NCBI GenBank assembly: GCA_000091205.1
Contig: AP006499.2
Strand: one strand, 5' to 3'
From: Cyanidioschyzon merolae
Taxonomy: Eukaryota
Length of the DNA stretch: 64,000 nt
Below the pieces are notes generated by a model. The model worked only from the letters and a program-made list of their open reading frames with translations. It was not told the origin of the DNA and made no database searches. Both the position numbers and the translations under genes were made by a program. Shown here piece by piece: positions 1,239 through 23,587 of this stretch (positions are counted from its first letter, which is position 1; the number at the start of each line of letters is the position of its first letter).

Positions 1239-4200
1239 TCATCTGCGCTTGTCGTCGCTCGCTGGGCAGCGCGTGAGGCCGTAGGCGTACGGACCTCGCA
1301 CCCCGCCGTGCGCTCGACGATCCCACTGGCCAGTGACCTCTAGTCCAAGCGTATTCCGCAGAAAGTGCTTCATTTTCGCAACAGTTAAAACGTGACCGAG
1401 GCAACGGCTTTTCTGTCGTTCATACGAGCGGCTCCTTTCGGAGGTCGTCGAATCCTCGCAAGATGTTCCTGCAGCAGCTAACTCTGCTTTGAGCGCGCGC
1501 AAGCGAACAAAGTCCGTATGTGGTCCGAAAACCGTATTCGGTGTGAAACGATAGTGCTGCATCAGGAAGCGCGCGAAGCAGTGAAACGGTTGGTTAGGTT
1601 GCAGCGCTATCGCTGCCAATATCTCTTCGCGTTCCGCTACACCGAGCATGCTCGCTCGCGTAGGATTGCGCTGGCCTCCACGTCGCCGTTTCTGTGGCTG
1701 CGCTGGTTCCAGGGTCACGCTCTGCGCACTCGTCGTGATAGGCGAGAGCTCCCGACCAATGTCCGCAGTCTGGACACGCTCCAGCGGGTCATTCCATGCT
1801 CGCAACTGCTCGTTTGCCGTTGCCGATGCTTGTTCCTGGTTGGCGGCAGCATCCTCTGGACCAGTTACCCAGCGGAGAAACTCATTGAGTTGCTCGGGAC
1901 GCACTACACTCAGTTGCGAAGACGACCCCGAAGAGCGTCCGCCAGGCTGCATCGCACCAACTTCAGACGCTCCTGCGTCCGCACGTTCGATCCAGGAGGG
2001 CGCGTAGCCTCGTCGTTGTCGTTGTCGGCTTTCTGGCACCAACGCTGCTGCTGTATGTACACTGCCAATGCCGAATGCTCGACGACTGTGGTTACCATAG
2101 GAAAGCGACTGAAGAGCGTTGTGCTCGACGGTCGGGGCGAGCTCCTCAATGATGGTCGTTGAGCCCCTTGAAAAGCGATCATGAAGTGCGTATGGCGTTC
2201 CATTCGTGAAAGAGAACGTTTCCATCCCGGAATCGTCCGAATCCGATGCAGATTGCTCAAGCCACAACTGCGGCTGTTGCAGATCAATTAAAGACCACAG
2301 GGATCGGGTTGGTTGTCGCAGTACAAATACACGCCGCATGAGGTCCATGGAGTCGAGTGCTCGCGCTCGAGCCGTCCGCGAGTCCACCACCGGATGCGCA
2401 TAGCAAGAGCCCAGCGCGATACCCGCTTGCGCAAGCACTGAAGCTGGCGCTCGCCACGGACGATGGACGTAACACGTAGGCAGTGCGGCCAATTCGGGTA
2501 CCCAGCGCTTCACGTACTCACCATGGGGATCTTCTCTGAGCCCAAACGTGATCGGATTGACGATACACGCAAACGGGAACGCATCGGTGTGGCAGCCTGC
2601 CGTCCACTGCCACCCGAGCGTCTGACAGGCTATGTCCCCGTCGAGAACATGATCGTAAAGAAAGCGGAGACCATGCTGCCACGGAATGAGAAGGTACTTG
2701 GTCAGGAAGCCGGCGATCATGAAACGAATGCGATTATGCAGGTATCCAGTGGTACGCAACTCCCGAATCGCTGCGTCAATGATGGGATACCCGGTTTGGC
2801 CGCTTCGCCAAACCTCGAGCATGCTCTGATCGTTCCAGCGCCAAGGAAAGGCGCGGAATTCGGGCAGTAGCGGCTCTTCGAAGGCCTGTGGATTGTGAAA
2901 GAGCAGGTGATACGCGAATTCTCGGAGGCACATGTTTTTCAGGAACGCCTTCACCGCGCTGATGGTCTGTTGTGCATCTGCTGCATCGGTGTGGGTACGT
3001 GTGTTTGCCGCGAGCGCCTCGCCTGCTGTAGCGTGACGCTCACGGTTCAGGAGCGCATGCCGTGTGCTCCTTGGAGCCGCTTGATCGGTACCACCACGAC
3101 CTCCGTCGTCGTTGTCATCTGCTTCATCACCATTATTATTATTATTATCGTCGTCGTCGTCATCCTCATGATCGTAGAGAAAGTAGGTCGTGCCACTGGA
3201 GCCTCGTGGTCGGTTCACTTGAACCCGAAGCGGAAACATCGGCGCTCGCTGCGGCTGATAACCGGGAACTGCAGCAGTAGCAGTAGCAATAGCAGTAGCA
3301 TCCATGGAGTGAGGTGTTGCACTGATTCGGTGTGGCGACTCCAGGTAACCGTTCTGCTCCCTCGAATGCGCTGGTATTCCATTCCCTAGGGAAAGCGCGC
3401 TAGGCGCGTCCGACACGATGTCAGCCATGATTGCTGCATACAGCTGCCGCGGGCTAATCTCACCGAAACGAACATGCATGGAGAGGCGGCTCGTGCCGTC
3501 GAGCGCACAACGAGACTCTCGACGCCCGAATTTGGGATAACGCTCTCGGAGAAACCTTGACAACGTAATCCACGCTGCTCGCTCACCGACAAGCGGCCAC
3601 ATGCATTCCATCTGGGCACACCATTCCGGACTGAGATCAGAGACCAGCTCCAGCTCATGAATCTCGACATGGGAAACGCGTTGCCGTAAACCAGGCAGCG
3701 TCTGCAGCCTCAATGGCGCTGCTACAGGTGGGGGCGGTTTCGGGAAAGCGAGCCACTTTTCCATGAAGGGGTGAAACTCATTGAATGGCTCACCGTTGTC
3801 TTGAGCAAGCTCCCACGGCTCCACAAGAAGTTCCGATTTGAAGCTAACGAGTTCAACATTCCAAACAGCAAGGCGTTGTTCCAACGTTCGGTCCACTTCT
3901 GCGGCACCGATATCGTAGCAGCGGTTGAAGTAGACTGCGCTCGCATTCGTTTCCCGCGCCAGCTCCACAATGCTTTCCACGAGGCTCCCCTGCAGAACCA
4001 CCAGCCGCGCATCTTCGCCGTAGCGGTGCGCGAACTCCCGGTCCAGCGCCAGCAGCGACTCTCGCAGCCGCCAGCGCCCTGCTCTGCCAGGTTTACTCAT
4101 CCACGGCAGTTGCGGGTTCCAAACGTACACAGGAACCACCGGCATACCCGTTTCTGCAGCCGCACAGAAGGCAGCATGATCATCTATTCGGAGGTCGTGC

Positions 4201-4385
4201 CCCCGGTACCATACCAGTATGGGGCGCTGTGTCGCGCCCTGCGCTGCAGCCACTGCGAGCGCTGGTGTACGTCCCGGTGGCGGATGCGCGTTCACCTCCC
4301 GCCCCGCTTCGAGCAACGGGGAGCTGCTCAAAGCAAGCCACGGACACTCCTCTCCACTAGTTTCTGAAGGAGGATACGCGGGCAT
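1239..4385 (-). CDS. Cryptochrome/photolyase-family protein, 1048 aa from the first ATG, with a ~170-aa acidic/Asn-rich insertion and a ~400-aa disordered C-terminal extension
   Basis: N-terminal photolyase alpha/beta domain (ILVWYRGHDLRIDDHAAF...VVPVYVWNP). FAD-binding domain motifs TSRLS..HVRFGEIS, LREFAYHLLFH, TGYPIIDAAIRELRTTGYLHNRIRFMIAGFLTKYLLIPW, LGWQWTAG...DAFPF..IVNP. The ORF-track start at 4409 is GTG; the first ATG is at 4385 and the TGA stop at 1239-1241. Confidence 0.85.
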   Translation of the reverse strand: MPAYPPSETSGEECPWLALSSSPLLEAGREVNAHPPPGRTPALAVAAAQGATQRPILVWYRGHDLRIDDHAAFCAAAETGMPVVPVYVWNPQLPWMSKPGRAGRWRLRESLLALDREFAHRYGEDARLVVLQGSLVESIVELARETNASAVYFNRCYDIGAAEVDRTLEQRLAVWNVELVSFKSELLVEPWELAQDNGEPFNEFHPFMEKWLAFPKPPPPVAAPLRLQTLPGLRQRVSHVEIHELELVSDLSPEWCAQMECMWPLVGERAAWITLSRFLRERYPKFGRRESRCALDGTSRLSMHVRFGEISPRQLYAAIMADIVSDAPSALSLGNGIPAHSREQNGYLESPHRISATPHSMDATAIATATAAVPGYQPQRAPMFPLRVQVNRPRGSSGTTYFLYDHEDDDDDDNNNNNGDEADDNDDGGRGGTDQAAPRSTRHALLNRERHATAGEALAANTRTHTDAADAQQTISAVKAFLKNMCLREFAYHLLFHNPQAFEEPLLPEFRAFPWRWNDQSMLEVWRSGQTGYPIIDAAIRELRTTGYLHNRIRFMIAGFLTKYLLIPWQHGLRFLYDHVLDGDIACQTLGWQWTAGCHTDAFPFACIVNPITFGLREDPHGEYVKRWVPELAALPTCYVHRPWRAPASVLAQAGIALGSCYAHPVVDSRTARARALDSMDLMRRVFVLRQPTRSLWSLIDLQQPQLWLEQSASDSDDSGMETFSFTNGTPYALHDRFSRGSTTIIEELAPTVEHNALQSLSYGNHSRRAFGIGSVHTAAALVPESRQRQRRGYAPSWIERADAGASEVGAMQPGGRSSGSSSQLSVVRPEQLNEFLRWVTGPEDAAANQEQASATANEQLRAWNDPLERVQTADIGRELSPITTSAQSVTLEPAQPQKRRRGGQRNPTRASMLGVAEREEILAAIALQPNQPFHCFARFLMQHYRFTPNTVFGPHTDFVRLRALKAELAAAGTSCEDSTTSERSRSYERQKSRCLGHVLTVAKMKHFLRNTLGLEVTGQWDRRAHGGVRGPYAYGLTRCPASDDKRR
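3118..3152. repeat. Trinucleotide run (ATT/GAC, read as AAT/GAC on the minus strand) encoding the poly-Asp/poly-Asn stretch inside the cryptochrome insertion
   Basis: 'accattattattattattatcgtcgtcgtcgtcatcctcatga', read directly; translates to DDDDDDNNNNNGDE on the minus strand. Confidence 0.8.
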
Positions 4386-7300
4386 CACACATGCAGCGTC
4401 AAGTTCCACAAAGCACCGCTGACGTCCTCGTGTATCGACGGGTGCTGTTCGCGCGCACCTTGAACCTGTATAAAGCAGGTACCCGCAAGCACTCGGAACA
4501 AACCTACCACTTTGTCGTTACGAAGTCTACAAGCGACCAGTAGCGTACGACAAGTGTACCAGCACCCAAGTGCCTGCTTGATTGTCCCGGAAACCTGATA
4601 GCACAGAAGCCTTCCGTTTCGGACACCGGTTTGGAGGGGTCAGCTGCGACCAGCACTACGAGCACCACCAGATAATCGATCATATATGGACATTGAGGAC
4701 GTCGAGGTCGCGATGCAGCGCTGCTGCCGCCGCTGCCGCTGCGCAAGCGATCATCGACTGCCCGTAACACGATGCGTAGGATACCTATGTGCTGGTGCAG
4801 TGGAGGCTGCACGTGTCGGTTGCTATGGTCACGTCTGGTGCATGTGGGGCAATGAATTTGGGTGTAGGAATCGTGTATGGAGCCTAGGTTCTCCAAAAAT
4901 CTTGGACAAGTTGCAATGAGGGGTAACGGATCTAGGTGTCGTTGGAGGGTGCTTGGAGGTCATTTGTCGGGGTGCTTGTGTGTCGCTCCTTGAGCGCTGG
5001 CGTTCGATACATCACCGGAATCAAGATGACTCATGACGCTCTTGAACAGCGGTTCGTAAAATAGCTGATATCGTGATGCAGAGCATAGGTACAGGCCCCA
5101 GGCTTTTCCGTTCTTGATGTGGAGCGTGCTCGAATCGCGCATGCTTCGAGTTTTCTGTCTTTCTGGTTCATGACGGCGCATGTGTTGCTGGAAGAACGAC
5201 GAACAAAACTGGACGTCATGTCTCGGCAATTTGTTCACCAGCTCATATCGATCGTTCACTGAACGTGTCTCGTCGAATCATCGATGCCTTTTCGAGCCAC
5301 ACCTGCTTGGATCCTCGTACATATCCACGGACGACATTCCGCAGCAGCGTGGCATTTCTGACGCGGGGCGCTTCTGGAGGCCCCCGTCTGCTCGGTAGAC
5401 ATCTGGAATAGGTCAAGGACGCGCGCTTGAGTCATCGAAGCGACTGCTTCTGGTGGAGCGCAAGTCACCACCACCATCCACGAAAAAGGCGTAGACGGAT
5501 CGAGAAATCTCGATCTCGTGTCTAGCCTGGATTCTCCTTGCGCGGCTTGTTTCATCATGGGAAACACCACGTTCCAAAAAGATTCTTTATCAAATGGAAC
5601 ATCGTGCTTTTGCGTGTGCCGCTTACAGGTTACGCATCGAAGGCATCGCCCGGAACAAGCCAGGAATTGCCGTGGAAGGCACCAGAGGCGCCAACGAATG
5701 AAGACACCAACCAGAGCCCTCTGTAGCCGTCAAAGGCATGTACCGGGATGTGAAGCAAGCGTTCACCTGCCATAGGACGACGCTCGGAGGAGCAGAAGGT
5801 GCGGTTTATGTATTAGAACATCTGACCAGCGTCAAGTGTTTTCGCTGCGAAGCGCGCTCCGAGGCTATCTATATCGAAGATGCATATTGCAAGCGACGCG
5901 TAGATTGGAACTACTGCTTCTGCATGAAATGCGTCGACAGCATCCATACGCGGCGAATTCGGGACTGGAACGTATCCATCAATACCCTTCGACTGATGAT
6001 AAGGGGGCCGGAGGCACGCGAGAGACAGGCGTCTGGAAAGCCGATGAATCGAGAGAGACGAAAACGTAGCATTTGCACAAGAATTCCGCAGCGGCTGGTA
6101 TCGGAGACAGTGGCAGGAGTCCCAAACCTTACAGTGCGCACCTGCGTTACGAGGCCCATTCCGTCGGAAGCTCAGGCTGGTCTGGGCGCGTGCACCATGA
6201 TGATGATGACGACGACGCGCTGGTTGCCACAATGATGTTGCTCTGGACATTTCAGCTACAGAAAAACGTGCAAAACCTGATAACCAGCCACAGATGCATG
6301 GACACGAGTCAAGGCTCTCGAATCTTGCTTGCCATATCAATGTCTGCGAAAAGCTTGTACGAACACCGCATCTCCCGGGGCGAAGGAGTTCGAGCGCTGC
6401 ACATGTCCTCGACTGGCCGGGAGGCATGCTGCAGGCTCGCGACACCCAGACGATAGCTGCTGCTGCTGCTACTGCATGCGTTCTCGGGAACATCTTGTAG
6501 GTATATTTCAGCGCGAAACGCATGCGTCGACGCTCACACCACCTCCCTGTACAAGAGCAGAGCACTTTGACGAATAAGTTTCACAGCGTACCGAGGCCTT
6601 GTCCGGCGAATCGACTCGAAAAGCGCGCTTGTTTGCTCTTGCCCCGCATCGGATCGCGAGTTATCCAAGGTTCCGATTCTTCATGTTCGAAAGCGCTGCG
6701 CCTCTGCATGAGTTACTCGGGAAAATAGATGACTTTATACGGCAAACAGCGTCAGCATTTGATTTGTCTAGGACGAGGTCTGCAAACGACACCTGCGTGG
6801 ATGTCACTGCAAGCGCAGCGTTACAAACCTCAACAGCTTCTGGTACCGGCAAGTGAGCGCCCCAGGGCCAACACAGCTGGTTCACGGCTCTCGTTATCCA
6901 AGCATACAGCAGGACGCTTCCGCCCCACACGAGTGATTGCATGCAAAGTACAGCACAGTCACGATGAAGGCACACTCGTTGCGCTACTGCTTGCGAGAGC
7001 ACACGGCAGCAGGGCCAACCGTCACGTAGAACACCCACGCTTGATCAAGGAAGAGCACGCCGCATCGCTCGTGAAACCGGCATCCGCTACAGAAACACCC
7101 CAGAAAGAAAAGTTATTCTATTCACTGAAACGGATCGGATAAAGGTACGCCATCCGATCAGTGCACAAGCCAGCGTAGCGCAGCCTGGTATGCAGTTGGC
7201 CCGCAACGCGTTACGCATCTGCAAGGCGCATACCTGTCCGTCAAGGAAAAGAACACGCAGCAGCTTGTATAGCACTAGCGCAGAATCACCAGGATCCAGA

Positions 7301-7600
7301 CCGTAACAGGCAGCGTTAAACGTAGCACAGCACCGCGTGATGAAAGCAAAGCATCCACCACAGCTTCCGGTTTGCACAGCACAGGTGGTATTGCCGCTTC
7401 TGCGAAGACGCCCAGTGCGTCTGTTCGCTGCCGCAGCTTCAGTGCGTCGCTATCCAGCACAGCGACGCTCATCTGACTCCTGCAAAAGACAACAGCAAGC
7501 CGAGGTGACATCGGGAACACCTCCCGCCGGCGCTCGTATTACTGTTAATTCGTTATGCTGTCCTGCAAAACACCAACCAGTTGCAAGAGGCACACGCCAG

Positions 7601-8427
7601 ACGTCCCACTGCCACTAGTCATCAGCGTTCTACTGGGTCCGAGTGTCACCTGCTCAGGCACGTGTGCTTGCAACCCTGTCATTTTCAGATCTTTAGTACC
7701 GTACCACTAGTCATCAGCGTTCTACTGGGTCCGAATGTCACCTGCTCAGGCACGTGTGCTTGCAACCCTGTCATTTTCAGATCTTTAGTAACGTACCACT
7801 AGACATCAGCGTTCTACTGGGTCCGAGTGTCACCTGCTCAGGCACGTGTGCTTGCAACCCTGTCATTTTCAGATCTTTGGTACCGTACCACTAGTCATCA
7901 GCGTTCTACTGGGTCCGAGTGTCACCTGCTCAGGCACGTGTGCTTGCAACCCTGTCATTTTCAGATCTTTGGTAACGTACCACTAGTCATCAGCGTTCTA
8001 CTGGGTCCGAATGTCACCTGCTTAGGCACGTGTGCTTGCAACCCTGTCATTTTCAGATCTTTGGTACCGTACCACTAGTCATCAGCGTTCTACTGGGTCC
8101 GAGTGTCACCTGCTCAGGCACGTGTGCTTGCAACCCTGTCATTTTCAGATCTTTGGTAACGTACCACTAGTCATCAGCGTTCTACTGGGTCCGAGTGTCA
8201 CCTGCTCAGGCACGTGTGCTTGCAACCCTGTCATTTTCAGATCTTTAGTAACGTACCACTAGACATCAGCGTTCTACTGGGTCCGAGTGTCACCTGCTCA
8301 GGCACGTGTGCTTGCAACCCTGTCATTTTCAGATCTTTAGTAACGTACCACTAGACATCAGCGTTCTACTGTGTCCGAGTGTCACCTGCTCAGGCACGTG
8401 TGCTTGCAACCCTGTCATTTTCAGATC
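7601..8427. repeat. Head-to-tail tandem array, 92-bp unit x ~8.9 copies, each unit carrying a CACGTG palindrome
   Basis: The unit 'cactagtcatcagcgttctactgggtccgagtgtcacctgctcaggcacgtgtgcttgcaaccctgtcattttcagatctttagtaccgtac' recurs with exact 92-nt phase (cactag at 7613, 7705, 7797, 7889, 7981, 8073, 8165, 8257, 8349). Only a few variant positions occur (tagtc/agaca, gtaccg/gtaacg, gagtg/gaatg). The array ends about 200 bp upstream of the apyrase ATG. Confidence 0.9.
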
Positions 8428-8626
8428 GCTGCCCTAGCTTTCCTCAAGTAACGCGCTACCCCAAGGCATTCTTGGAGCGCCCCACGAGCACGAGCGCGCG
8501 ACATGTCCTATCGCCGCTTGACGGTTACGCAGCCAACGCGTTAGGGCAAGTGTGTCTCAGCTGGTGCACTGTCAGAGGGCGAGGCTCAGACGTGAACCGC
8601 CAGAGGGCTTGCTTTATGTATAGTTT

Positions 8627-10192
8627 ATGCTAATACCGCAGGGCAAGTCCTTTCAAAGAGGCTCCCGTTCAGTCTCTGCCGGCTCTCTGGACAGCGACAG
8701 CGGCGGTTACGGTCGAGGTGCAGTACGTCCCAGCGAGCGGCGAGTGTCGCGTTCTCGTTGGTCAGAGATGGTTGGCAGTGCCCATGATCGACACCAAAGC
8801 GGTTATAGGGGAAGTTCGAACTCTCTTCCGACGGCCAGTAGCCGGCAGAGCAGTGTCGACCTTGAAACTGGTCGTTCGCTCCTGGACGATGCCGACGAGA
8901 ACGACAAGGAGCGTCGGGGCCTCTGGTCCCTGGGTCTCGGTTTTGCGGCGAGCTCTGCGGCGAGTTCGTTGCCATCTGGTTCGGCTACATCGCTTTCAGG
9001 TACGAACGGAACGCCTCCCTCGACGAGCATTGTCGAATGGCTGCGACAACGCTCGCTGCGTGGCCTCCTGTACTGGCTTCTCGCCCTGTGTTGTATTGGC
9101 CTTCTGCTGGACTACTCGGTGAATCACCTGCTGCATCACAGCAGTTTCTTAGGAAATCATGGGCATGACTATAGAAACCGGGACATGTATCGACCCGACA
9201 GACCATGGGGACCGTTTGTTTTCGGGGTTATCACGGACATGGATCGATTGTCTGCCGTACCTCACCGCTCGAAAGCATCCAAAAGCGAGTGGATTGCGTA
9301 TTTCCGTCGAGGTGAACTGGAATACCGTGTACACGACGCTCGTGGAAACCGATCAGCTGAAGGTGTTTGGACTATCCGCTGGCACGAGCCTGCTCCCGGT
9401 GTTCGCTTGACAACGCAACTGAGCGAGGCCGGACGCGGTATGGAACTCAGCGAACTCGTTTACTGGCGAGGACGTTATCTGACGCCCTGCGATCGCACCG
9501 GCATCGTGTACGAAATTCTGAACGCTCGCTTACCGAAACCCTATGTAGCATCGCGTTACGTGCTCGCTACCGGTGACGGTGAACACGCGAAAGGTTTCAA
9601 AGCGGAGTGGATGACCGTTCAGCATGGTGCACTATTCATTGGCGGACACGGCCGCGAAACCACGGATGCACACAACGGCACTCATGTGGTGAACGACGAT
9701 GCGCTCTGGGTGAAACGCATCGCTCCAGATGGTGTAGCGTTCGTGGAGCACCTCAACTGGACGAACCGTTATGAACGGCTACGTCGAGCAGCGGGCACCG
9801 CATTTCCGGGCTACCTGGAACACGAAGCGGTTGTCTGGAGTGAACGACGCTCCCAGTGGCTCTTTCTTCCACGACGGTTCAGCGTCGAGCCATATGATGA
9901 ACGAGCAAACGAATTTCGCGGTTGGAATGGTTATCTTTTAGCAGATGAGAACTTTCAGAGCATTCAGCTCAAACACCTGAATGTTCGTGTCGATGGTGAG
10001 CGCGGCTTCTCGTCTGTGAAGTTTCTGCCGTTTACCGGTGACCGGCTTGCCATTGCGTTGCGAACGATCGAACACGAGGACGAGGGTGTGTATCGAACGT
10101 ATCTGACAGTGTTCCAGGTCGACGATGGTCGCGTCCTCTTGGCCGATACGCCAGTCGGTGAGCACAAGTACGAAGGCATTGAATTTTTATAA
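8627..10192 (+). CDS. Calcium-activated nucleotidase / apyrase (CANT1 family), type-II membrane topology
   Basis: ATG at 8627, TAA at 10190-10192. The apyrase domain has [24 protein letters not shown] (compare CANT1 [23 protein letters not shown]), [27 protein letters not shown] and WVKRIAPDG. The N-terminus is a Ser-rich cytosolic region followed by a TM helix ([19 protein letters not shown]). Confidence 0.85.
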   Translation: [521 protein letters not shown]

Positions 10193-13932: not shown

Positions 13933-14094
13933 TGCGACAGCATACCGAGAAAACAGAACCCTTGCTTGTTTTTTGCTGCCGCCACTCGAGTACAGCCACA
14001 GCCAGCGAACGTTCCCAGTTTGGGTCCGCGCATCGAGTGAGAAACTGACCACGATTGTGGCGCTGCTGCCTCGATGCGAATGCGCCGCTGCGAT

Positions 14095-14462
14095 CCCAGA
14101 CGTCTCCGGGCGCCTCGTACTGTTTCCTGATCAGAATTGTATAGTAATAAACAATTATAGCAATATATATCTACCTTTGGTGTTGGGCGATTGCGGACAG
14201 CACCGTCGAGGAACCATCCCAGACGTCTCCGGGCGCCTCGTACTGTTTCCTGATCAGAATTGTATAGTAATAAACAACTATAGCAATATATATCTACCTT
14301 TGGTGTTGGGCGATTGCGGACAGCACCGTCGAGGAACCATCCCAGACGTCTCCGGGCGCCTCGTACTGTTTCCTGATCAGAATTGTATAGTAATAAACAA
14401 TTATAGTCATATATATCTATCTTTGGTGTTGGGCGAATGCGGACAGCACCGTCGAGGAACCC
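14095..14462. repeat. Tandem repeat, 123-bp unit x3, with an AT-rich TATA-like core, in the receptor-kinase promoter
   Basis: 'cccagacgtctccgggcgcctcgtactgtttcctgatcagaattgtatagtaataaacaa(t/c)tatag(c/t)aatatatatcta(c/t)ctttggtgttgggcga(t/a)tgcggacagcaccgtcgaggaacca' begins at 14095, 14218 and 14341. It lies 160-530 bp upstream of the kinase ATG (minus strand). Confidence 0.85.
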
Positions 14463-15480
14463 AGTGACACACGGATGTGTTTTCGAGATGGACAATGGGC
14501 ATTCGTCGTTCCTAGCATTCGAAAGGGTGTTGATGATGAGGATAACGACCGCAGCGATCCCGATACGAAATCGGGGAATTAGTGTACGTCATTCATAGCA
14601 TTCGACGGGTGTCAATAGGGATGTCCATGGCGGCGATCGCGTGACGGTTTCCGTACCTGGGGTTGTTGTAGGCGCAAGCGGTGCATATACGGACGTTTCC
14701 ATCTGCGCTTCATTCTCGATTTGGCTCTTCTTGTTCGTATACAGCATCGATGTGCGATTCGGAACTGGCATGCTAGCCTGTGGTTGATTGCGGGAGCGGC
14801 GTGCCCTCGTATGTCCGCCGTATCGCCTTCTCTGGAAGCTGCACTGCAGTGCTTGAACGCTTGCTCCATCTCTCGGCAGTTGTTCTTCATGAGCACAGAG
14901 GGCTTGCCTCGGTGCGTCTCTCCGTGTTGGCGCCATATACCATAGTGCGGAATTACCGCGTCGTTCTGGGCGATGCTGTCCGTGAATATGCTTTCTGGTG
15001 GAAGCGCGAGCGCATGCTTACTCGTGCGATAGAGGATTTGCAGAACGCGATGTTTTCCATGATGACACGCAAGAATCGCGAGAAAAATTAAGACTGGTGG
15101 AAGCATACGAAACTTTGCAACTGTCGCTGGTCCCATGACGCGAATCGACGACGCACTCTGTACTGAAAGGGATCGCTGTGATAACGAAGTCCGAATTCTA
15201 GACCCTTTTCTACGCACACACACACATACACACAGAGAAGAGCCGGAAGTCTCCGGAAGTATACCCCACGAGATGGATCATAGGGCTGCTGCGGGCCTGC
15301 CGTTTCGTCGATAGCCACAATGAGATGAGGATTTATCGTCGCAACGGAATCGATCATGTGATTTGAGAAGGTCACGAACTGGTCGGCAGGAGCTTGTGAA
15401 GAAATCGTCAAGGGACGCCGTCGAGGTTCTTCGCTCGTCAAAGTCATGCGACGGAGATCTTTGGACGCACGCTGTTGTTT

Positions 15481-15715
15481 GCTTGAAAAGAAAGATCGAA
15501 AACTCGTACCATTTGTGATTTGAACATGCTACGCGTCAGGAACGCAGAAATGTCGAGGCTCGTACATGTGAATTGGGCGATAATTGCGGGTGTTTTCATT
15601 CTGAAAAGAACGATCGAAAACTCGTACCATTTATGATTTGAAAATGCTACGCGTCAGGAACGCAGAAGCGTGGATGCTTCTACATGTGAACTGGGCGATG
15701 ATTGCGGTTATTTTA
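15481..15715. repeat. Tandem duplication, ~117-bp unit x2
   Basis: 'gaaaagaa(a/c)gatcgaaaactcgtaccatttgtgatttgaacatgctacgcgtcaggaacgcagaa...acatgtgaa(t/c)tgggcgat(a/g)attgcgg' occurs twice consecutively. Confidence 0.7.
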
Positions 15716-17460
15716 AAAATGCCTGTTCGAGGGCGTTCCACGTCATCTTGATGCCCGTCACCGGTGGAATTCAACCCGCCATACATCAGAGAATCCACTC
15801 CAAAAAGCCGATCGAGCATCAGAAAAGTCATGTATGAATCCGGACGCCGATATCATTGCACACGGAGTCTCGAGGTTGCAGATCCAAAGCACGCTCGGAA
15901 ACAACATTGAAAAATAGGTTCAGAGCGAGTAGTTCAGTGTTCCGCGTTCAGGCGACACGGGTATATTGTCGTCTGGGTATGCGATGACGCTCCGTAACCG
16001 GACAAGCGACCATCTTTTCTCTCTAGACGCCGCCAAGTTCCCCGAATCCCATACGAAACTTTCCGTCGAGATCGACGGCTTGGTCCTTCCGGGGAACCTC
16101 CTGGTCTGGTGACATGCCTCGAATAGACGCTGGATATGTCACCGTTTCCGCAGCCTCCATGCGAAGACAGCTGCGCGTTGCGGTGCCGTGGCCGGTGTCA
16201 ACTCGCGACCCATCCTGCATATGTGCTGCTCGGTCGTTGCACAAAGCGATGGCTGGTGGTGATCCACGAACGTTTGCGTCAAGGCCCGTCCGACAGCGCT
16301 CTCCGCACAGGCACGCGGTGTCCATCGTTTTCCAGGGCTTCAGGTTCGATTTTGCGTCAAGGCGCCGTCCTGAAACGGCATCTGATCAGCAACAACAACA
16401 ACAACAACAACTGCATATGCACGGCGACGACAAGTCCCGAATCCGCTGGATACAGAGGGTGCACGACCCGTCTTCGCTCCAGTTGTATCACTTGTTGGTG
16501 TCGCAGTATCGCTGCGCTTATGCGAGTCTCAACCTTTCCATATCGTGTATGCATCGCCTACTATATCGTAGCGCTTCACACAAGAAAACTTGGCGGCATC
16601 GTGCGGTGTCATGCGAGTTTAGCATTGTATGCTTTGTGATGCACGAACTTCGGAGCAACCAGGATCTGCTTTCGAATGACCGGATGCTTTTTTGCGTCAC
16701 GAGAAACCCTCCCTCCATAGACACTGTGAAGGACAAGTGTTGCGCATAACGCGCTCCATGCCCGGCACTTTATCACCAAATGCGCTTCACACAACAGCGT
16801 GCCTATGCCTGCATTCCTGGGTGGCGCACGACGCCTCTGGCGCTCGCAGGATGCTGAGTTCGGGTATGCACCACAAGCAGGCGCCCGGGGTGTCATGAAC
16901 ACGGCCGCCACTGGGGCCACGGCAGTTGCCAGAGGCGTCAGCGCAGGGTACCGTGGGCGACGCACAAACGCACTGCTGGAGCGTTTTCTTATGTGGCTTC
17001 GTTCATGGTGCAGGATCGGTGCAGTGTAGCTGCCTGCTGATGATGATGCTCACCCGAGTGCGCGGTTGTCTTCGGCAACCGGGGCTACGACACCCGCTCT
17101 GCTGTAGACCCATGTGTTTCCCTAGGGATCCCCAGAGCGGATCGGGGCGTCAAGCACACATCATAGCAGGTATGCAGAACACGTCCGTGCGAGCATTCCG
17201 GGAACAACAGCAACTGCTACAACGACGAGTGTACCCGTGGTATCGCAACACCGTCGCCACCGGCCAGCGACATTGCCATAAAGCGGCTACGCACAAGCGC
17301 TGCAGCTGCCTCTTGAGTCCTCTGCTGCTGCTGCTGCTGCTGCAGCTGAGCACCTGCCTCCACATTCCGACTCGCTGGCGCCTTGGCGAGGACAAACGTG
17401 TGCCCAGCAGCGACCCGGCTATGCTGCAGCATCGCTGGTGCTCCCGGGCGCCTTTTGTGC

Positions 17461-20400
17461 TCAGCGTAGCTCATCATGACGGGTAGGGTGCATCGATTGC
17501 TCCCGCTGTGCAACGAATGCTTCCCAGGCGTGGTCATCGACCAGCGTCGCTGCTGCGGTAGCCTCTGTATCCAGTTCGTCCCAATGCGGAATGATACGGC
17601 GAGCGCTTTCGAGTTTCGACTCGTGTGTACTCGGATTATTACAGAGATCAATGGTTTTGGCACGAGCCTTGCTCTGTTCGCTGCACCAGGTCTCGCACCA
17701 GAGCCATTCGGACGGTAGGGATTCGAGGGGAACCAGCGGTTCAGCAGCGTTCATGGTACCGCTTTGCTCAGCCAGCGGCACACTTGCATAGTTCGGCAGA
17801 TCCTGGTCCAAATTCGAAAGCGACTCTGGATCGGCGCTCAGTCTCTGGTACAACGCTCGAAGCGTGTCACCGGCACGGTGTGCGCGAAAACGTTTCAGAT
17901 CAACAACGAACAACGCTGATATGTGGTACGGTTGCCCGCGTAGGTGTTTCGCCCAGAATCCTCGCTTCCAAAACCGATACGCATCCATTTCGGGACGATC
18001 GTCACAAAACGGCACGAAACCGTAGACAGCACGTGATCCGAGGGCCAGCTCCCAGAGCTCACCGAGGTCACCGCGAACCACTTGATCCGAATCGATGAAG
18101 ATGATACGTTCCACATCCGACGGGAACAAAACATCTAGGAATAAAATCTTATACGCCCAGATCAGGCGCTGTTTCTCGTGCTGCGGCCGTAGCCATCGAG
18201 GCCAGGCATACCATACCAGTTCGTAGTCGAAGCCGAGGCGATGTGCTAGTCGTGGCAACTGGGCACGAAACCTGGGCGACAGAAAGTTGCCCACCAGCCA
18301 GAACTTGCAGCGATACCTCGGTGTCGCTCGGACCGCACTCAGCATCATGATTCGAAGCAGTCGTTCGTACAAATGCCCAGAGGCAATCGAGAACAGATGT
18401 ATCAGAGGACGCTTGTCCGCTGATGATGACGACGACGATGATGCGCTCGGCGGTAGACAGAGACGCTCGCGACGCTGCACTTGTGACGACGTCCGAAGGG
18501 CAGCGACGAGCGCCCAGACGCGCTCATACCAGGTACGTTGCAGGTGCGCCACACGCAATAGCAGCAGCGGCTGTGACTGTGTCGACTGGCCCCACAAGTC
18601 GTCCACAACCAATAACGTGGCGTTGCTGGCATCGATCGGCTGCAGGTCCACAAGTCTAGCGGCATAAGGCGCGCGTTGCGCCTCGACAAGGGCAATCGAG
18701 AGGTCATCGCGTTGCCTCCCGAACGCCGAGGGAATCGGTATCGGCACAAGACGCCAAATGCCCGGTGTCAATGCCAGCTGAAAGTAGCCGGAACCCTCCA
18801 TCACGACAGTCTCGACCCGAGACCGACGCTCACGACTGCAGTGATCCGGGTGTCGAATGCCGCCATGCTGCTCCAGGCGTAACGCGAGGCCAGGTGCTCG
18901 TGTAGACGGCTGCCGATCGACGACGAAGCCCTCTACGATGAGCTTGCTCAGTTCGTATCGAATGGAGCGATGCGAAGGCGTACCTGGGGGTGCCCACTGC
19001 ACCAGTGCCACATTGTCTGGATCCAGCTCAGCATGCTGCACTGTTGTGAACCAGGTTGCTGGTGTCCGCAGGTGAACGCTGTGGATCCGGTGCTCGGCAA
19101 GTCGATCGAAGATGACGCTGGCGCTGGTACCGTTCGCCAGGGCATCTGCGAAACGCGTCACCAGCTTGGAGCGTACGTACCGCGGCTGGAGCAGGCGTCC
19201 GTCATCGCCTCGCCACTGGAGTCGCGGGTTCAGCGTGACATCGAGTTCAGCGTCGAGTGCTTCGCCAAGTAACTTGCGTAGCACCAGGGTGAACGAAGCA
19301 TCAGCGGCTGTGAATGGTGCAATGAGGCCCTCTGCTCGCAGCGCGCTTCCAGTGTGCTGCCTGGGTACTGCGGGCGCCTTGCGATACCGCAGTGCAGGCA
19401 CCAGGTGCCGCAAACGACGAAGCGAGTCAAGCGGTAGCTCGCTGGGCGACTGCTGCACTAGAAGCGATCCGCCACTGGGCCTGCAGCTTCCATCCAAAAC
19501 GTCTGCGAGGATCGTGGAGATCAAGACCGCATCCGCTTGATGCGACTGATCCACAGGGCTGCAGCGCCCAGATAGCGGCTTTGTTTGCCGAATGATGTAC
19601 GAGCCGCAACGAGCCTCCATCAGAGCCGCTTCCCGCTGGAGGACAGCCTTGAAGAGCGCAGCGGCGTGATGTGCCCAAACCTCGTCCCGATCGATTCGAT
19701 ACCGTCTACCGTTGACAACGAGCGCTAGTTGACCTGGGTCGACGCCCCAGCCGCCAGAGAACAACAATCGGAGCCAATTTGGTGCTGGTGTGCCCGTTAG
19801 GGTAGGCGCTGTGGATGCAGGGCTCACCTCCACGCCACCACAGATGCGCTCCAGGCGCCGTCTCAGGGCGTCATCGAGTTGCATCGAAGAGCGCGACGCA
19901 TTCGCAGGTGTCGCTGTCCACAGCTGCATAAGCGATCGAGCAACTGGGCCCGCCTGGAGACCCGTATGAAAGAGCCCGAGTCGTACCGCAGACGGCCATG
20001 CAGCTGCTCCCGGATGGTGTGACGGTTGCGTCCACTGCTGTTCCGCGAGTACGCGCATCGCATCGTGGAGAAACCTGCAGCCGAAAGTTGTATCCAGGTC
20101 GAGAAGAAGCCACACGGTCAATGGCGGCTGGCATCCATCGTCGTGGGCGTCAGCCGCATCCACAACTGCCAAGCGATACGGGATGTTCAGGAGATGCACT
20201 GCATCGCCCTGGGTATGCTGTTGCTGCTGTGCAAAGAGCGCATCCCAGAGCAGTGCAATCGACTGCAGGCCCTGCTCGATGTGCTCCTGCTGTAGCGCTG
20301 TCGATCCCGAGACCAGCTGGGATGTTGCTGAGAGCAACTGCGTCTCAAAGGCCGGCACAAGCACCAGTCTCGTTGCCAGAACCGCAGCAGTGGCGCTCTC

Positions 20401-23238
20401 CTTGCGTCTAGGCGATGGATACGGCCCTGGTGTGACCGTTGTCGATGTGCGCCAGCTCGATGTCTGGTAGACAACGTCGTCCACACAGGCTGCGTCGGGA
20501 GCGAGTCCCGCGCGTGTCAGCTCAGCGAGTCGCTGCACTTCAGCGTTCAGGTATCGAAAGACGGTGGACGCATCTACGGGATCCTTTGCAAGGTCGCCGA
20601 TGCGCTTTCCATTCAGAGCTAGCAACGCTGACGTATCGGCAGGCAGACCAATGCTCCGTAGCCACTGACGAGTGCGTACTTCCGCGTGCACCAGCATCGC
20701 GCACTGGCTCGAGTCGTGAACCTTTGCAGCAGCAGCAGCGCCGCCGCTGCGGAGACCGAACAACGCACCCAAGACTCGCTTCTTGCCGTGCGGATGTAGA
20801 ATCAGCGATTCGTAGTCGTGTTCGGCATCGAAGCTGGACGAGGTCTGATTCGGAGAAGCCGCTTGCATGCCCGCTGCTGTCTGGAGGAAGACGCGTCGGA
20901 CCTGGTCAGCTCTTGGTGGTAACGGCGGCAGCGCGATGGTGCTCGAGCGGCCCCCGAGTCCCTGCAGCATCCACAGTGCAGCGAGCGGGTGTTCCCGCTG
21001 TACCGTTGCGTGCAACTCGCTCAGAAACGAGGCCGCTGCTCGTCGGGAACGCCGCACATGCAGCAAGTAGTATACTGCTCGGCAGATGACCGCATCCGTT
21101 GACGGTTCCAATGGAGAGCGCCTTGGGGGGAGCTCCCCAGGCGACTGGAGATCACCGCGTCTCCATCCCAGCGACCTCAGCATGCCCAGAGCGCGCGACC
21201 AAGGAGAGCGTGGTGCACCCGCGGTGTCACCGGCTGAAGCGTTCCACCGGTACGCTGCCTCATGCGGTGGCACCAGCACCAGCGATATCTGAAAGGGAAG
21301 GACGGGGTCGCGGTTCTTGACCCATTGGATCAACTGAGCGGACGCTTCGAGTCCAGCCGCGGAGCCTGGGTTCACAAAGGCCACCAGCCGGAAAGCGTTT
21401 CGACGTAGTTTCGGAAATGCCTTTGCGCTGGGGCTCTGCAGCAGCTCCTGGAAGCTCGGACTCCAGTTCTGGTATTTGCGATCCCGCTCTATGTCATTCA
21501 GGCGGAAAATGAAAAGCTGCTCCACCGATTGTACAGGATCGCTGTCGGATTCCTCTGTACAATCTAAGAGTGCCGGTAGGTAGAGGCGCGTATCGACGAT
21601 TGTCGTACTTGCTTCAGCTTCGCTTTGACGATGGGTGATGTTCGCAAGAAAGCGTTCTCGATCATCAATCGCCGCTGTTTTCAGCGGATCCATCATGTCC
21701 CAGATACGGTAAGCAGCCAAATGTGCGGCAGCGATGCTGGCGGCACAGAGCGCCACCGATGAAGCGTCTGGGCTGACCTGTCGTCCATTGAGAAATAAGA
21801 CCGAAGGCAGGTTGTCCCAGTGCAGTTCAGGATGCAGGCGACTGAGGTTCTCCGCAGACGCTGTGAGCAGAGCTCGGCTTTGCGCCACGGAAGCCGCAAA
21901 CGAAGGCTCTGCCTTGGCCTCCTTCCAGAGAGCGGCGCCAATGCTCGGAAGATCATTGCCCAGCTGCTCGATACCCTGCAGCAGCGATCCCGTCAGGTCC
22001 ATCAGCAACTCCTCTAGCGTTTCAGATGCACCAGTGTGCTTCGTCGCTTCCGACCAAAGCGATTGCATGAGCAGCGCATCCAGAGTCGCTTGGATTTCAT
22101 CCTTATCGAGGTCCTGAATGTCGATCGCAACAGATCCTGCGGCACCACGCTGTCTGACATGTTGCGTCTTGTTGCGCTGCAACCAGAGCGTCTCGTTCTG
22201 CTTCGTGTCTAGCACCACGTAATCGGAGCTTTTCAGCGCCAGCTCTACTGTGTAGCCGCTTAATGACATCATCTGCGTCGCGTCACTGGAAAAGTCGGCC
22301 GTTAGCGCCGCTCGACTCGGTGCCGCTCTCCGCATCCGAATGACGTAGACGAGCTCGCAGTTCTGGGCACGTTCACGGACTGCACGATGAAAAGCGGAGA
22401 ACGCATCGTCACGGAAAACATCTGTGTACAGAATGGCAGCGATGAGCGGTTCAGTACCAGACTGATCGGTCCAGCGTTTGTCGCCCGGGACATGCGGCGC
22501 TGCTGCACTGCCACCGACACAGCCCAGGACCGTATCCGACGGCAGCAGGAAGCGTTGGGAGGCAAGATTCCAGCGATGTACCTCGTCTATGTTTCGCGGG
22601 AAGCGACTGCGACAAGCATCAACATGATGACCAAGGGAAGCGAGCGCTGCTTCATCGGCGATCGGGATGCGTTCCGCACCGCATACGAGGAGTACCCACG
22701 TGGAGTCTACTGCGTTCAGAGCGGGCTCCAGCTGATCGCGATCGTCCGTCTCCAAACGCTCATGGAGCTGTAGGCGTGCGGCGTAAACACGCTGGACAAC
22801 GAGTACTTCCAAACTTCTCCACGCTTGGCGAACCGCTGCAGTCAACGCGTCAGCCTCTACTGAGGAAGTCAGATCAGCGGCAGCTGCGGTCCACGCAAGC
22901 TCCAGCCGCGTTCGCAGCCAGCGTATGGCACTGAGCTCGCGCTCCGAGTCCGAGTTAGCGCTGCGAAGTAGATCAGTCCCGTCCGCGATCTGGTCCAATA
23001 AACTCCAGAACAAGCGATCTGAATATATTCTGCGTATGCCTTCTAAAAGCTCTAGCGGCAACGATGATGCGTTCCAGGGTGCTACTACGTCAACGTGGAG
23101 TGCCTTCACGCTGCGCCGCACCGCTGCAGGCAAAAAACTCTGCGAAATACCGATACATAATGATGCACAGATTATCAGCGTATACACCGCGCATACCCAC
23201 AGTCCTAATGAGAAACGTTGTCGCCCGAAGCTCCGCAT
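17461..23238 (-). CDS. UGGT: UDP-glucose:glycoprotein glucosyltransferase (UGGT, ER folding sensor), 1925 aa from the first plausible ATG
   Basis: The C-terminal GT24/GT8-like catalytic domain has KILFLDVLFP..VERIIFIDSDQVVRGDLGELW..YGFVPFCDD..YHISALFVVDL. Long N-terminal thioredoxin-like region. The first ATG (23238) gives a hydrophobic signal peptide, MRSFGRQRFSLGLWVCAVYTLIICASLC. The ORF-track extension to 23886 runs through the 65-bp tandem repeats and is an artefact. The C-terminus reads ...RHDELR*. Confidence 0.9.
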   Translation of the reverse strand: MRSFGRQRFSLGLWVCAVYTLIICASLCIGISQSFLPAAVRRSVKALHVDVVAPWNASSLPLELLEGIRRIYSDRLFWSLLDQIADGTDLLRSANSDSERELSAIRWLRTRLELAWTAAAADLTSSVEADALTAAVRQAWRSLEVLVVQRVYAARLQLHERLETDDRDQLEPALNAVDSTWVLLVCGAERIPIADEAALASLGHHVDACRSRFPRNIDEVHRWNLASQRFLLPSDTVLGCVGGSAAAPHVPGDKRWTDQSGTEPLIAAILYTDVFRDDAFSAFHRAVRERAQNCELVYVIRMRRAAPSRAALTADFSSDATQMMSLSGYTVELALKSSDYVVLDTKQNETLWLQRNKTQHVRQRGAAGSVAIDIQDLDKDEIQATLDALLMQSLWSEATKHTGASETLEELLMDLTGSLLQGIEQLGNDLPSIGAALWKEAKAEPSFAASVAQSRALLTASAENLSRLHPELHWDNLPSVLFLNGRQVSPDASSVALCAASIAAAHLAAYRIWDMMDPLKTAAIDDRERFLANITHRQSEAEASTTIVDTRLYLPALLDCTEESDSDPVQSVEQLFIFRLNDIERDRKYQNWSPSFQELLQSPSAKAFPKLRRNAFRLVAFVNPGSAAGLEASAQLIQWVKNRDPVLPFQISLVLVPPHEAAYRWNASAGDTAGAPRSPWSRALGMLRSLGWRRGDLQSPGELPPRRSPLEPSTDAVICRAVYYLLHVRRSRRAAASFLSELHATVQREHPLAALWMLQGLGGRSSTIALPPLPPRADQVRRVFLQTAAGMQAASPNQTSSSFDAEHDYESLILHPHGKKRVLGALFGLRSGGAAAAAKVHDSSQCAMLVHAEVRTRQWLRSIGLPADTSALLALNGKRIGDLAKDPVDASTVFRYLNAEVQRLAELTRAGLAPDAACVDDVVYQTSSWRTSTTVTPGPYPSPRRKESATAAVLATRLVLVPAFETQLLSATSQLVSGSTALQQEHIEQGLQSIALLWDALFAQQQQHTQGDAVHLLNIPYRLAVVDAADAHDDGCQPPLTVWLLLDLDTTFGCRFLHDAMRVLAEQQWTQPSHHPGAAAWPSAVRLGLFHTGLQAGPVARSLMQLWTATPANASRSSMQLDDALRRRLERICGGVEVSPASTAPTLTGTPAPNWLRLLFSGGWGVDPGQLALVVNGRRYRIDRDEVWAHHAAALFKAVLQREAALMEARCGSYIIRQTKPLSGRCSPVDQSHQADAVLISTILADVLDGSCRPSGGSLLVQQSPSELPLDSLRRLRHLVPALRYRKAPAVPRQHTGSALRAEGLIAPFTAADASFTLVLRKLLGEALDAELDVTLNPRLQWRGDDGRLLQPRYVRSKLVTRFADALANGTSASVIFDRLAEHRIHSVHLRTPATWFTTVQHAELDPDNVALVQWAPPGTPSHRSIRYELSKLIVEGFVVDRQPSTRAPGLALRLEQHGGIRHPDHCSRERRSRVETVVMEGSGYFQLALTPGIWRLVPIPIPSAFGRQRDDLSIALVEAQRAPYAARLVDLQPIDASNATLLVVDDLWGQSTQSQPLLLLRVAHLQRTWYERVWALVAALRTSSQVQRRERLCLPPSASSSSSSSADKRPLIHLFSIASGHLYERLLRIMMLSAVRATPRYRCKFWLVGNFLSPRFRAQLPRLAHRLGFDYELVWYAWPRWLRPQHEKQRLIWAYKILFLDVLFPSDVERIIFIDSDQVVRGDLGELWELALGSRAVYGFVPFCDDRPEMDAYRFWKRGFWAKHLRGQPYHISALFVVDLKRFRAHRAGDTLRALYQRLSADPESLSNLDQDLPNYASVPLAEQSGTMNAAEPLVPLESLPSEWLWCETWCSEQSKARAKTIDLCNNPSTHESKLESARRIIPHWDELDTEATAAATLVDDHAWEAFVAQREQSMHPTRHDELR

Positions 23239-23587
23239 CAGCACCTCGGCTGCCAGCTCATGCGGAAAGCACCTGGCTGGCAGGGCGTAGCAGGCTTGAG
23301 CGGCGACAGCGCGGTAGCATCCGCTGCCGCCTCGGCTGGGAATCGCTCCTGCCTGCGTCTGTGTTGGGCCTTCGTTCAACCAGGTACACCAGGGGCCGTG
23401 CTTGCGCTCGAGAGCGCTATGCAGGAGGAGGTGCTTTCGTCGTCCAGTGCGCACCGTTGGACTCGATGCATACTCCCGTGCTGCTTGCTGGTACGTTCGT
23501 TGCCAGCGTAAGCTGCTTTGACTGCCTGGTGTTAATGCTGGGGCAAAGGCCGGGCGTTTGATGGTGTAGTCTGAAGTCAATGCATGG

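What the first reader, a model, noticed from the sequence alone, without database searches (positions are those of the whole stretch)
7601..8427. A 92-bp x9 tandem array, each unit with a CACGTG palindrome, lies directly upstream of the apyrase gene
This is an almost perfectly phased 92-bp head-to-tail array of ~8.9 copies with >95% inter-copy identity. It ends ~200 bp before the apyrase ATG and about 3.2 kb upstream of the divergently oriented cryptochrome. Every unit contains the E-box/G-box core CACGTG, a bHLH/bZIP site and a classic light-response element in plants, embedded in 'ctcaggcacgtgtgcttgc'. High identity implies recent expansion or homogenisation. The array could act as a multimerised cis-regulatory module, a nucleosome-positioning satellite, or a member of a dispersed satellite family. 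The ORFs the track predicts inside it are repeat artefacts.
Basis: seen in the sequence. Interest (0 to 1): 0.5.

Follow-up and report, generated by a model that had tools for sequence, protein, structure and literature searches.

The report
Ordinary single-locus minisatellite upstream of apyrase

Summary
TRF finds a 92-bp array of 8.9 copies at 7612-8427 with 97% matches and no indels. Every unit carries CACGTG, and the array ends 199 bp before the apyrase ATG. The window is Cyanidioschyzon merolae 10D. The flanking genes are BAM82280 (probable cryptochrome), BAM82281 (probable apyrase) and BAM82282 (Raf-like kinase), which are consecutive in the reference annotation.

A scan of JGI metagenome contigs found the unit in six contigs, all at this same locus. 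It is absent from viral and prokaryotic collections and from the rest of the window, so it is not a dispersed satellite. Twenty-five environmental C. merolae contigs carry the locus. Short-read assemblies span it with 1-4 units or break inside it. The units differ between strains at the same nine positions, which is a typical minisatellite variant-repeat mosaic.

CACGTG is not enriched outside the array (11 observed, 18-25 expected). It is absent from the orthologous spacers of two Cyanidiococcus-type genomes. It is no better protected from variation than chance predicts (P=0.53). The unit shows no RNA structure, Rfam match or coding potential. Four other long-period tandem arrays lie in the same 64 kb.

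Verdict: a near-neutral promoter-proximal minisatellite. A regulatory role is untested and unsupported. Interest is low.

The parts
7612..8427 (.). 92-bp minisatellite: 8 full units plus a final 80-bp truncated unit
   Evidence: TRF gives period 92, 8.9 copies, 97% matches, 0 indels. The sequence was read directly. The 45-mer core occurs 9 times against 0 expected. The same array is found at the same locus in environmental C. merolae contigs.
7659..8400 (.). Nine CACGTG hexamers, one per unit, starting at 7659, 7751, 7843, 7935, 8027, 8119, 8211, 8303 and 8395. Each lies 6 bp (12 bp start to start) downstream of a CACCTG.
   Evidence: CACGTG outside the array: 11 observed against 18.5 (mononucleotide) or 24.9 (Markov-1) expected. 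The chance that a given 92-bp unit holds one is about 0.03.
7602..7611 (.). 5' boundary: acgtcccact resembles the unit junction acgtaccact but is out of register.
   Evidence: Read from the sequence. TRF starts the array at 7612.
8428..8626 (+). Unique 199-bp stretch between the array and the apyrase ATG. By inference it holds the core promoter and 5' leader.
   Evidence: It is 99-100% identical in 23 environmental contigs. No TSS data were available, so the promoter role is inferred.
8627..10192 (+). Apyrase gene (calcium-activated nucleotidase family), identical to C. merolae 10D BAM82281.1
   Evidence: Pfam PF06079, E=8.6e-88. 521/521 identity to BAM82281.1 / XP_005538317.1.
1239..4385 (-). 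Plant-type cryptochrome gene, identical to C. merolae 10D BAM82280.1. It is the divergent neighbour, 3.2 kb from the array.
   Evidence: Pfam DNA_photolyase plus FAD_binding_7. Best solved-structure matches are plant CRY2/CRY1. Exact match to BAM82280.1 'probable cryptochrome'.
4914..6052 (.). Copy of a highly diverged dispersed non-coding element inside the cryptochrome-apyrase spacer. It is not part of the array, but it helps explain why the spacer is 4.2 kb long.
   Evidence: 57-58% identity over about 1.1 kb to 34390-35425, 37237-38302 and 14854-15758. tblastx hits support this.
6053..7611 (.). Unique spacer 5' of the array, with no detectable gene
   Evidence: No other copy in the window. 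No Pfam hit for its ORFs. No Rfam or tRNA hit. No protein is annotated here in 10D, because the accessions BAM82280 and BAM82281 are consecutive.

Best explanation
This is a single-locus minisatellite in the nuclear genome of Cyanidioschyzon merolae. A roughly 92-bp piece of the spacer upstream of the apyrase gene was duplicated head to tail. It has since expanded, contracted and exchanged variants between units, by replication slippage and unequal or gene-conversion-type recombination (inferred). The result is an array of about nine units in strain 10D, with differently composed arrays in wild populations. The nine CACGTG hexamers are copies of one hexamer that happened to lie in the founding unit. 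The array most likely has little or no sequence-specific function. It sits just beyond the 199 bp that immediately precede the apyrase start codon, a place where extra DNA is tolerated. Its main physical effect is to move everything upstream of 7612 about 736 bp further from the gene. Shown here: the array, its uniqueness to this locus, its presence and sequence polymorphism in natural populations, and its absence from the sister genus. Inferred: the slippage and recombination mechanism, and near-neutrality.
For: The array structure is clear: period 92, 8.9 copies, no indels. It is confined to one locus. The only six JGI metagenome contigs with the 24-mer core all carry the window's flanks. 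There are no hits in viral or prokaryotic genome collections and none elsewhere in the 64-kb window. Population behaviour is that of a minisatellite. 49 units from 23 of the 25 environmental contigs plus the window give 20 distinct unit sequences, varying at only 9 positions that are reshuffled among units and strains. Terminal units differ between strains, and variants such as 'ca' at positions 31-32 are absent from 10D. Short-read contigs span the array with 1-4 units or stop inside it or at its edge, as expected for an unresolved repeat. Two contigs from one sample cannot be overlapped consistently, which implies at least 6 units there. Intra-array divergence (2.4%) exceeds between-strain flank divergence (0-1.1%). 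There is no sign of selection on the motif. CACGTG is untouched by the 9 variable sites with chance probability 0.53, and the longest invariant run is 30 bp with P=0.31. The motif is not enriched outside the array. There is no CACGTG and no sequence similarity in the orthologous spacers of L002 and L003. Similar arrays are common here: four other arrays with periods of 65-130 bp lie in the same 64 kb. One of them (123 bp x3) starts about 160 bp upstream of the neighbouring kinase ATG. An unrelated 130-bp x2.6 array sits at the apyrase 5' end in L003.
Against: Neutrality is inferred, not shown, because no expression, TSS or chromatin data could be consulted. The array lies in promoter-proximal DNA. 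Each unit carries two E-box-type motifs (CACCTG and CACGTG), and C. merolae does encode one bHLH protein (PMC2839125), so binding is possible. True copy numbers in wild strains are unknown because all environmental assemblies come from short reads. Uniqueness in the genome was tested on metagenome contigs and the window, not on the complete 16.5-Mb genome.
Confidence: 0.8

Rival explanations
1. Multimerised cis-regulatory module. The nine G-box/E-box cores recruit a bHLH or bZIP factor and act as an enhancer, possibly light-responsive, for the apyrase gene 200 bp downstream and/or the cryptochrome 3.2 kb away. Copy number would tune expression.
For: CACGTG is present in all 9 units, plus a CACCTG 6 bp upstream of each (12 bp start to start). 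The array sits 200-1015 bp upstream of the apyrase ATG. CACGTG is unmutated in all 49 units examined. C. merolae has one bHLH gene, and CACGTG is the usual target of group-B-type bHLH proteins (PMC2839125). The divergent neighbour is a plant-type cryptochrome.
Against: The nine motifs are one event, not nine. The hexamer's invariance is what chance predicts (P=0.53). CACGTG is under-represented rather than enriched in the rest of the window (11 against 18-25 expected). The orthologous spacers in two Cyanidiococcus-type genomes have no CACGTG or CACCTG and no similarity, although gene order is conserved. Other arrays in the window occupy similar positions without the motif. A dispersed element lies between the array and the cryptochrome. 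I found no paper reporting G-box function in C. merolae.
Confidence: 0.1
2. The array is transcribed as part of the apyrase 5' leader or of an unannotated non-coding RNA, and acts at the RNA level.
For: Nothing direct. The 4.2-kb spacer is long for this compact genome and has no annotated protein gene.
Against: There is no Rfam match at E<=1. Unit folds are no more stable than shuffles, with z from -0.41 to +0.71 on both strands and in two phases. ORFs are at most 83 aa with no Pfam hit for the one tested (7337-7618), which overlaps only the array's first 7 bp. Transcription itself could not be tested.
Confidence: 0.05
3. Member of a dispersed satellite family, or a centromeric or heterochromatic repeat.
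For: Only its tandem organisation and high identity.
Against: All six metagenome contigs holding the core belong to this one locus. There is no other copy in the window. The array is 0.8 kb long with 51% GC, not AT-rich. The genome papers I checked describe no such satellite: Nozaki 2007 reports very few repeats of this kind.
Confidence: 0.01
4. Assembly or cloning artefact in the reference sequence, with the true locus holding a single unit as in contigs L001, L011, L012 and L014.
For: Four spanning short-read contigs show only one truncated unit.
Against: The one-unit contigs lack the 12-bp junction, so they match exactly what a collapsed de Bruijn loop would give. Other independent assemblies span 2, 3 or 4 units or stop inside the array after up to about 3.3 units. 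Logan contigs end 30 bp into it. One sample needs at least 6 units.
Confidence: 0.02

Closest known systems
Classical minisatellites / VNTR loci with variant-repeat (MVR) mosaics, such as the human hypervariable minisatellites (own knowledge)
   Same: The unit is tens of bp long, arranged head to tail at a single locus, in an array under 1 kb. A few variable positions are interspersed differently among units and among individuals or strains.
   Different: The host is a haploid unicellular red alga with an extremely repeat-poor genome (PMC1955436). Length polymorphism is not yet measured, and there is no GC-rich recombination-hotspot-type core.
Promoter tandem repeats in Saccharomyces cerevisiae that alter expression through copy-number change (Vinces et al. 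2009, own knowledge)
   Same: It is a tandem repeat within the first kilobase upstream of a start codon in a compact genome, with a second example at the neighbouring kinase gene.
   Different: The yeast repeats are mostly short, AT-rich and nucleosome-excluding, and their effect on expression was measured. Here the unit is 92 bp with 51% GC, and no expression data exist.
Plant G-box (CACGTG) light-responsive elements bound by bHLH (PIF) and bZIP (HY5, GBF) factors (G-box/bHLH: PMC2839125; named factors: own knowledge)
   Same: It has the same hexamer core.
   Different: The motif is not conserved in orthologous spacers, is not enriched in the window, and has no demonstrated binding factor in C. 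merolae, which has a single unclassified bHLH (PMC2839125).
Other tandem arrays in the same window (123 bp x3 at 14093-14461, 118 bp x2, 65 bp x3, 130 bp x2) and the 130-bp x2.6 array at the apyrase 5' end in L003
   Same: They have the same kind of structure and intergenic or promoter-proximal placement in Cyanidiophyceae genomes.
   Different: Their sequences are unrelated and their copy numbers lower. The 92-bp array is simply the largest of them.

Membership tests
Minisatellite / VNTR | Head-to-tail repeats with a unit of about 10-100 bp | tested here: met
   Period 92, 8.9 copies, 0 indels
Minisatellite / VNTR | Confined to one locus rather than dispersed | tested here: met
   All 6 metagenome contigs with the core share the window's flanks. 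There is no hit elsewhere in the window or in viral or prokaryotic collections. The complete genome was not searched.
Minisatellite / VNTR | Variant units interspersed differently between individuals or strains | tested here: met
   20 distinct units among 49, with 9 variable positions reshuffled. Terminal units differ between strains.
Minisatellite / VNTR | Copy-number polymorphism between individuals | tested here: inconclusive
   Spanning contigs show 1, 2, 3 or 4 units against 9 in 10D, but these are short-read assemblies that can collapse repeats. One sample needs at least 6 units.
Dispersed or centromeric satellite DNA | Many arrays or copies at several loci, or very long arrays | tested here: not met
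   One locus only, 816 bp
G-box / E-box cis-regulatory module | Motif present in the promoter region | tested here: met
   9 CACGTG, 200-1015 bp upstream of the apyrase ATG
G-box / E-box cis-regulatory module | Motif conserved in orthologous upstream regions | tested here: not met
   No CACGTG or CACCTG in the L002 (1061 bp) or L003 (636 bp) cryptochrome-apyrase spacers
G-box / E-box cis-regulatory module | Motif more constrained than the surrounding unit sequence | tested here: not met
   P=0.53 that a given hexamer escapes 9 variable sites. The longest invariant run is 30 bp, P=0.31.
G-box / E-box cis-regulatory module | Factor binding and effect on transcription | not testable with these tools
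   Needs ChIP or DAP-seq, reporter assays or deletion. The literature I searched reports only one bHLH gene in C. merolae and no G-box study.
Structured non-coding RNA repeat | Significant or conserved secondary structure, or a match to a known RNA family | tested here: not met
   Rfam gave 0 hits at E<=1. Fold z-scores were -0.41 to +0.71.
Protein-coding tandem repeat | Open frame through the units, with a unit length that is a multiple of 3 | tested here: not met
   92 is not a multiple of 3 and ORFs are at most 83 aa. The one overlapping ORF tested (7337-7618) has no Pfam hit. There is no annotated protein between BAM82280 and BAM82281.
Tandem array internal to a transposable or dispersed element | Array or its immediate flanks repeated with the element elsewhere | tested here: not met
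   The dispersed element in the spacer covers 4914-6052 only. 6053-8626 is unique in the window.

The most novel reading that the evidence does not exclude
The array is a naturally multimerised G-box/E-box enhancer, or a copy-number-tunable promoter repeat of the yeast kind. Its length variation would adjust expression of the apyrase, or of the plant-type cryptochrome, among hot-spring populations of C. merolae. Promoter-proximal minisatellites about 160-200 bp upstream of start codons, seen at two adjacent genes here, would then be a general source of regulatory variation in this otherwise repeat-poor genome.
Probability: 0.07. Interest if true: 0.45.

Novelty: new member of a known kind. Interest (0 to 1): 0.12.

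Why it matters
As it stands it matters little. It is one more minisatellite, in a genome that has been public since 2004/2007. It has two modest practical uses. First, the locus is a ready-made strain-typing marker for C. merolae populations, because variant-repeat maps differ between samples. Second, it is a known trap for short-read assemblies, where contigs collapse or break at this point. If the unlikely regulatory reading were true, C. merolae would be an easy system for studying it. The organism supports routine homologous recombination (own knowledge) and has a single bHLH gene (PMC2839125), so one could test how tandem-repeat copy number tunes a promoter.

Tried and rejected
1. Dispersed satellite: rejected after the metagenome scan, the viral and prokaryote scans and the window self-comparison.
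2. RNA gene or structured RNA: rejected. Rfam, tRNA scanning and folding were all negative.
3. Coding repeat or hidden gene in the spacer: rejected. ORFs are short with no Pfam hits, and the 10D protein accessions on either side are consecutive.
4. Array as part of the dispersed element that lies in the same spacer: rejected, because the element covers only 4914-6052.
5. Conservation in relatives: the Cyanidiococcus-type loci keep the gene order, but their spacers are 1.06 and 0.64 kb, unrelated in sequence and without the motif.
6. Reconstructing the founding duplication from the flanks gave nothing clear. There is only an out-of-register resemblance (acgtcccact against acgtaccact) at the 5' edge, and the 12-bp junction tttagtaacgta has no counterpart in either flank.
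7. One-unit contigs (L001 and others) as an ancestral allele: not accepted. They lack the junction and match exactly what a collapsed loop in a short-read assembly would give.
8. Literature: I found no paper describing this array, G-box function in C. merolae, or expression of this apyrase.
9. Exact look-up of the apyrase protein with the look-up of encoding contigs failed for the window and for P0085, so no second assembly of 10D itself could be compared.

Full report
**Observation.** Tandem Repeats Finder reports one strong array at 7612-8427: period 92, 8.9 copies, 97% matches, no indels, score 1534. Reading the sequence shows eight full units and a final unit cut after 80 bp. A 45-mer from the unit that includes CACGTG occurs nine times at exact 92-bp spacing and nowhere else in the 64-kb window. 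Shuffled sequence gave no matches. The eight full units are on average 97.6% identical pairwise, with a range of 94.6-100%. Otherwise the description is accurate. ORFs inside the array are at most 83 aa and repeat the same peptides in rotating frames, because 92 is not a multiple of three.

**Where this is.**
- The ORF at 8627-10192 is an apyrase-family protein (PF06079, E=8.6e-88). It is 521/521 identical to BAM82281.1, 'probable apyrase' of Cyanidioschyzon merolae 10D, on a 1,232,258-bp chromosome.
- The minus-strand ORF ending at 4385 is identical to BAM82280.1, 'probable cryptochrome'. Its best solved-structure matches are plant CRY2 and CRY1.
- The next gene on the minus strand is BAM82282.1, a Raf-related kinase.
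- The three accessions are consecutive, so the reference annotation has no protein gene in the 4.2-kb cryptochrome-apyrase spacer.
- The small ORFs in the spacer have no Pfam match and appear only as automatic calls on metagenome contigs. Rfam and tRNA scans of the spacer are empty.

**Is it dispersed?** A scan of JGI metagenome contigs for a 24-mer core of the unit returned six contigs. Every one carries the window's own upstream or downstream flank at 98.7-99.7% identity. Viral and prokaryotic genome collections gave nothing. A self-comparison of the window found no other copy. The 92-mer is therefore specific to this locus as far as these data reach. The complete 16.5-Mb genome could not be searched.

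**Behaviour in natural populations.**
- Look-ups of near-identical apyrase proteins brought in further contigs from JGI, ENA and Logan, making 25 environmental C. merolae contigs in all.
- Contigs that span the locus hold 1, 2, 3 or 4 units.
- Other contigs stop inside the array after up to about 3.3 units, and Logan contigs end 30 bp into it.
- The one-unit contigs lack the 12-bp junction. They match exactly what a collapsed repeat loop in a short-read assembly would produce, so these counts are lower bounds and not alleles.
- In sample 3300005573 the 5'-side contig (L009) and the 3'-side contig (L023) cannot be overlapped consistently. If a single strain is present, this implies at least six units.
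- Across 49 units there are 20 distinct sequences, and they differ at only nine positions: 8, 25, 31, 32, 44, 45, 76, 84 and 88. These variants are combined differently in different units and strains, and some, such as 'ca' at 31-32, are absent from 10D. This is the variant-repeat mosaic typical of minisatellites.
- Units within 10D differ by 2.4% on average. The flanks differ between strains by 0-1.1% and the apyrase CDS by 0.3-0.4%. The array is therefore not obviously younger than the strain divergence, and it is present in every sampled population.

**Is the CACGTG meaningful?**
- The nine hexamers are one hexamer copied nine times. The chance that a 92-bp unit of this composition contains one is about 3%. 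That is unremarkable, given how many named motifs one could look for after the fact.
- Outside the array the window has 11 CACGTG, against 18.5 expected from base composition or 24.9 from a first-order model. The motif is not enriched.
- With nine variable sites in 92 positions, any given hexamer escapes variation with probability 0.53. The longest invariant run, 30 bp, is reached in 31% of simulations.
- Two Cyanidiococcus-type genomes (L002 and L003; apyrase 65-66% identical) keep the order cryptochrome(-), apyrase(+), kinase(-). Their spacers are only 1.06 and 0.64 kb, show no similarity to the C. merolae spacer, and contain neither CACGTG nor CACCTG.
- C. merolae has one bHLH gene (PMC2839125), so a binding factor is conceivable. 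I found no study of G-box function in this alga.

**Other readings.** The unit does not fold better than shuffled sequence on either strand or in either phase, with z from -0.41 to +0.71. The array has 51% GC and is 0.8 kb long, so nothing about it suggests a centromeric or heterochromatic satellite. Part of the long spacer (4914-6052) is a copy of a very diverged dispersed element. Its other copies lie at 14854-15758, 34390-35425 and 37237-38302. The array and the 1.5 kb before it are unique.

**Context.** The same 64 kb holds four other long-period arrays: 123 bp x3, 118 bp x2, 65 bp x3 and 130 bp x2. The 123-bp array starts about 160 bp upstream of the kinase ATG, a position much like that of the 92-bp array. 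L003 has an unrelated 130-bp x2.6 array at the 5' end of its apyrase gene. Tandem duplication in promoter-proximal spacer DNA therefore looks commonplace in these genomes, and the 92-bp array is simply the largest example in view. The C. merolae genome papers I checked stress how few transposons and repeats the genome has, and they do not mention this array (PMC1955436, PMC7291098, PMC11050394).

**Conclusion.** The best-supported explanation is a near-neutral, single-locus minisatellite that arose from local spacer sequence. It would be maintained by slippage and unequal exchange, which is inferred (confidence about 0.8). A multimerised G-box enhancer remains possible, at about 0.1, but has no positive support beyond the presence of the motif. 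It could be tested directly, because homologous recombination is routine in C. merolae (own knowledge). The dispersed-satellite, structured-RNA, coding-repeat and assembly-artefact readings are rejected or very unlikely. The finding is a correct observation of an ordinary feature, and interest is low.

Noticed in passing
window 4914-6052; 14854-15758; 34390-35425; 37237-38302: A very diverged dispersed non-coding element, 57-58% identical over about 1.1 kb, has four copies in 64 kb, two of them inverted relative to the others. It might belong to the interspersed element family described by Nozaki 2007 (253 copies, about 3.2 kb each). I did not verify this.
   Followed up: partly
window 24070-25343 and 42891-44177: A second dispersed repeat pair is 67.7% identical over 1.3 kb in the same orientation. 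It contains no ORF longer than 161 aa.
   Followed up: partly
window 14093-14461: A 123-bp x3 tandem array (97% matches) begins about 160 bp upstream of the ATG (13932) of the Raf-like kinase BAM82282.1. Its placement mirrors that of the 92-bp array upstream of the apyrase.
   Followed up: partly
window 15484-15714; 23582-23774; 29810-30069; 60553-60622: Further tandem arrays are present. The 118 bp x2 array lies inside a copy of the dispersed element. The 65 bp x3 array lies within the first ~100 codons or the 5' leader of the maximal UGGT-like ORF at 17461-23886. The other two are 130 bp x2 and 11 bp x6.4.
   Followed up: no
L003 9697-10029 (GCA_041825655, Cyanidiococcus-type): An unrelated 130-bp x2.6 tandem array (99% matches) overlaps the annotated start of the orthologous apyrase gene. 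That gene is called as 566 aa, against 525 aa in L002. This suggests tandem duplication arose independently at the same intergenic position.
   Followed up: partly
window 4410-8626 versus L002 8940-10000 and L003 9365-10000: The cryptochrome-apyrase spacer is 4.2 kb in C. merolae but only 1.06 and 0.64 kb in the two Cyanidiococcus-type genomes. The excess is partly explained by the dispersed element (about 1.1 kb) and by the expansion of the array (about 0.74 kb).
   Followed up: partly
L016 (JGI 3300050385) versus window 6546-10192: The 1066 bp upstream of the array are 100% identical to 10D. However, the array composition and the apyrase CDS (6 differences) are those of another haplotype. 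This could reflect recombination between strains, or a chimeric metagenome contig joined at the repeat.
   Followed up: no
L009 and L023 (both from JGI sample 3300005573): The contig ending in the array from the 5' side and the contig starting in it from the 3' side have incompatible unit orders. This implies at least six units in that population, assuming one strain. Short-read assemblies systematically break or collapse at this locus.
   Followed up: yes
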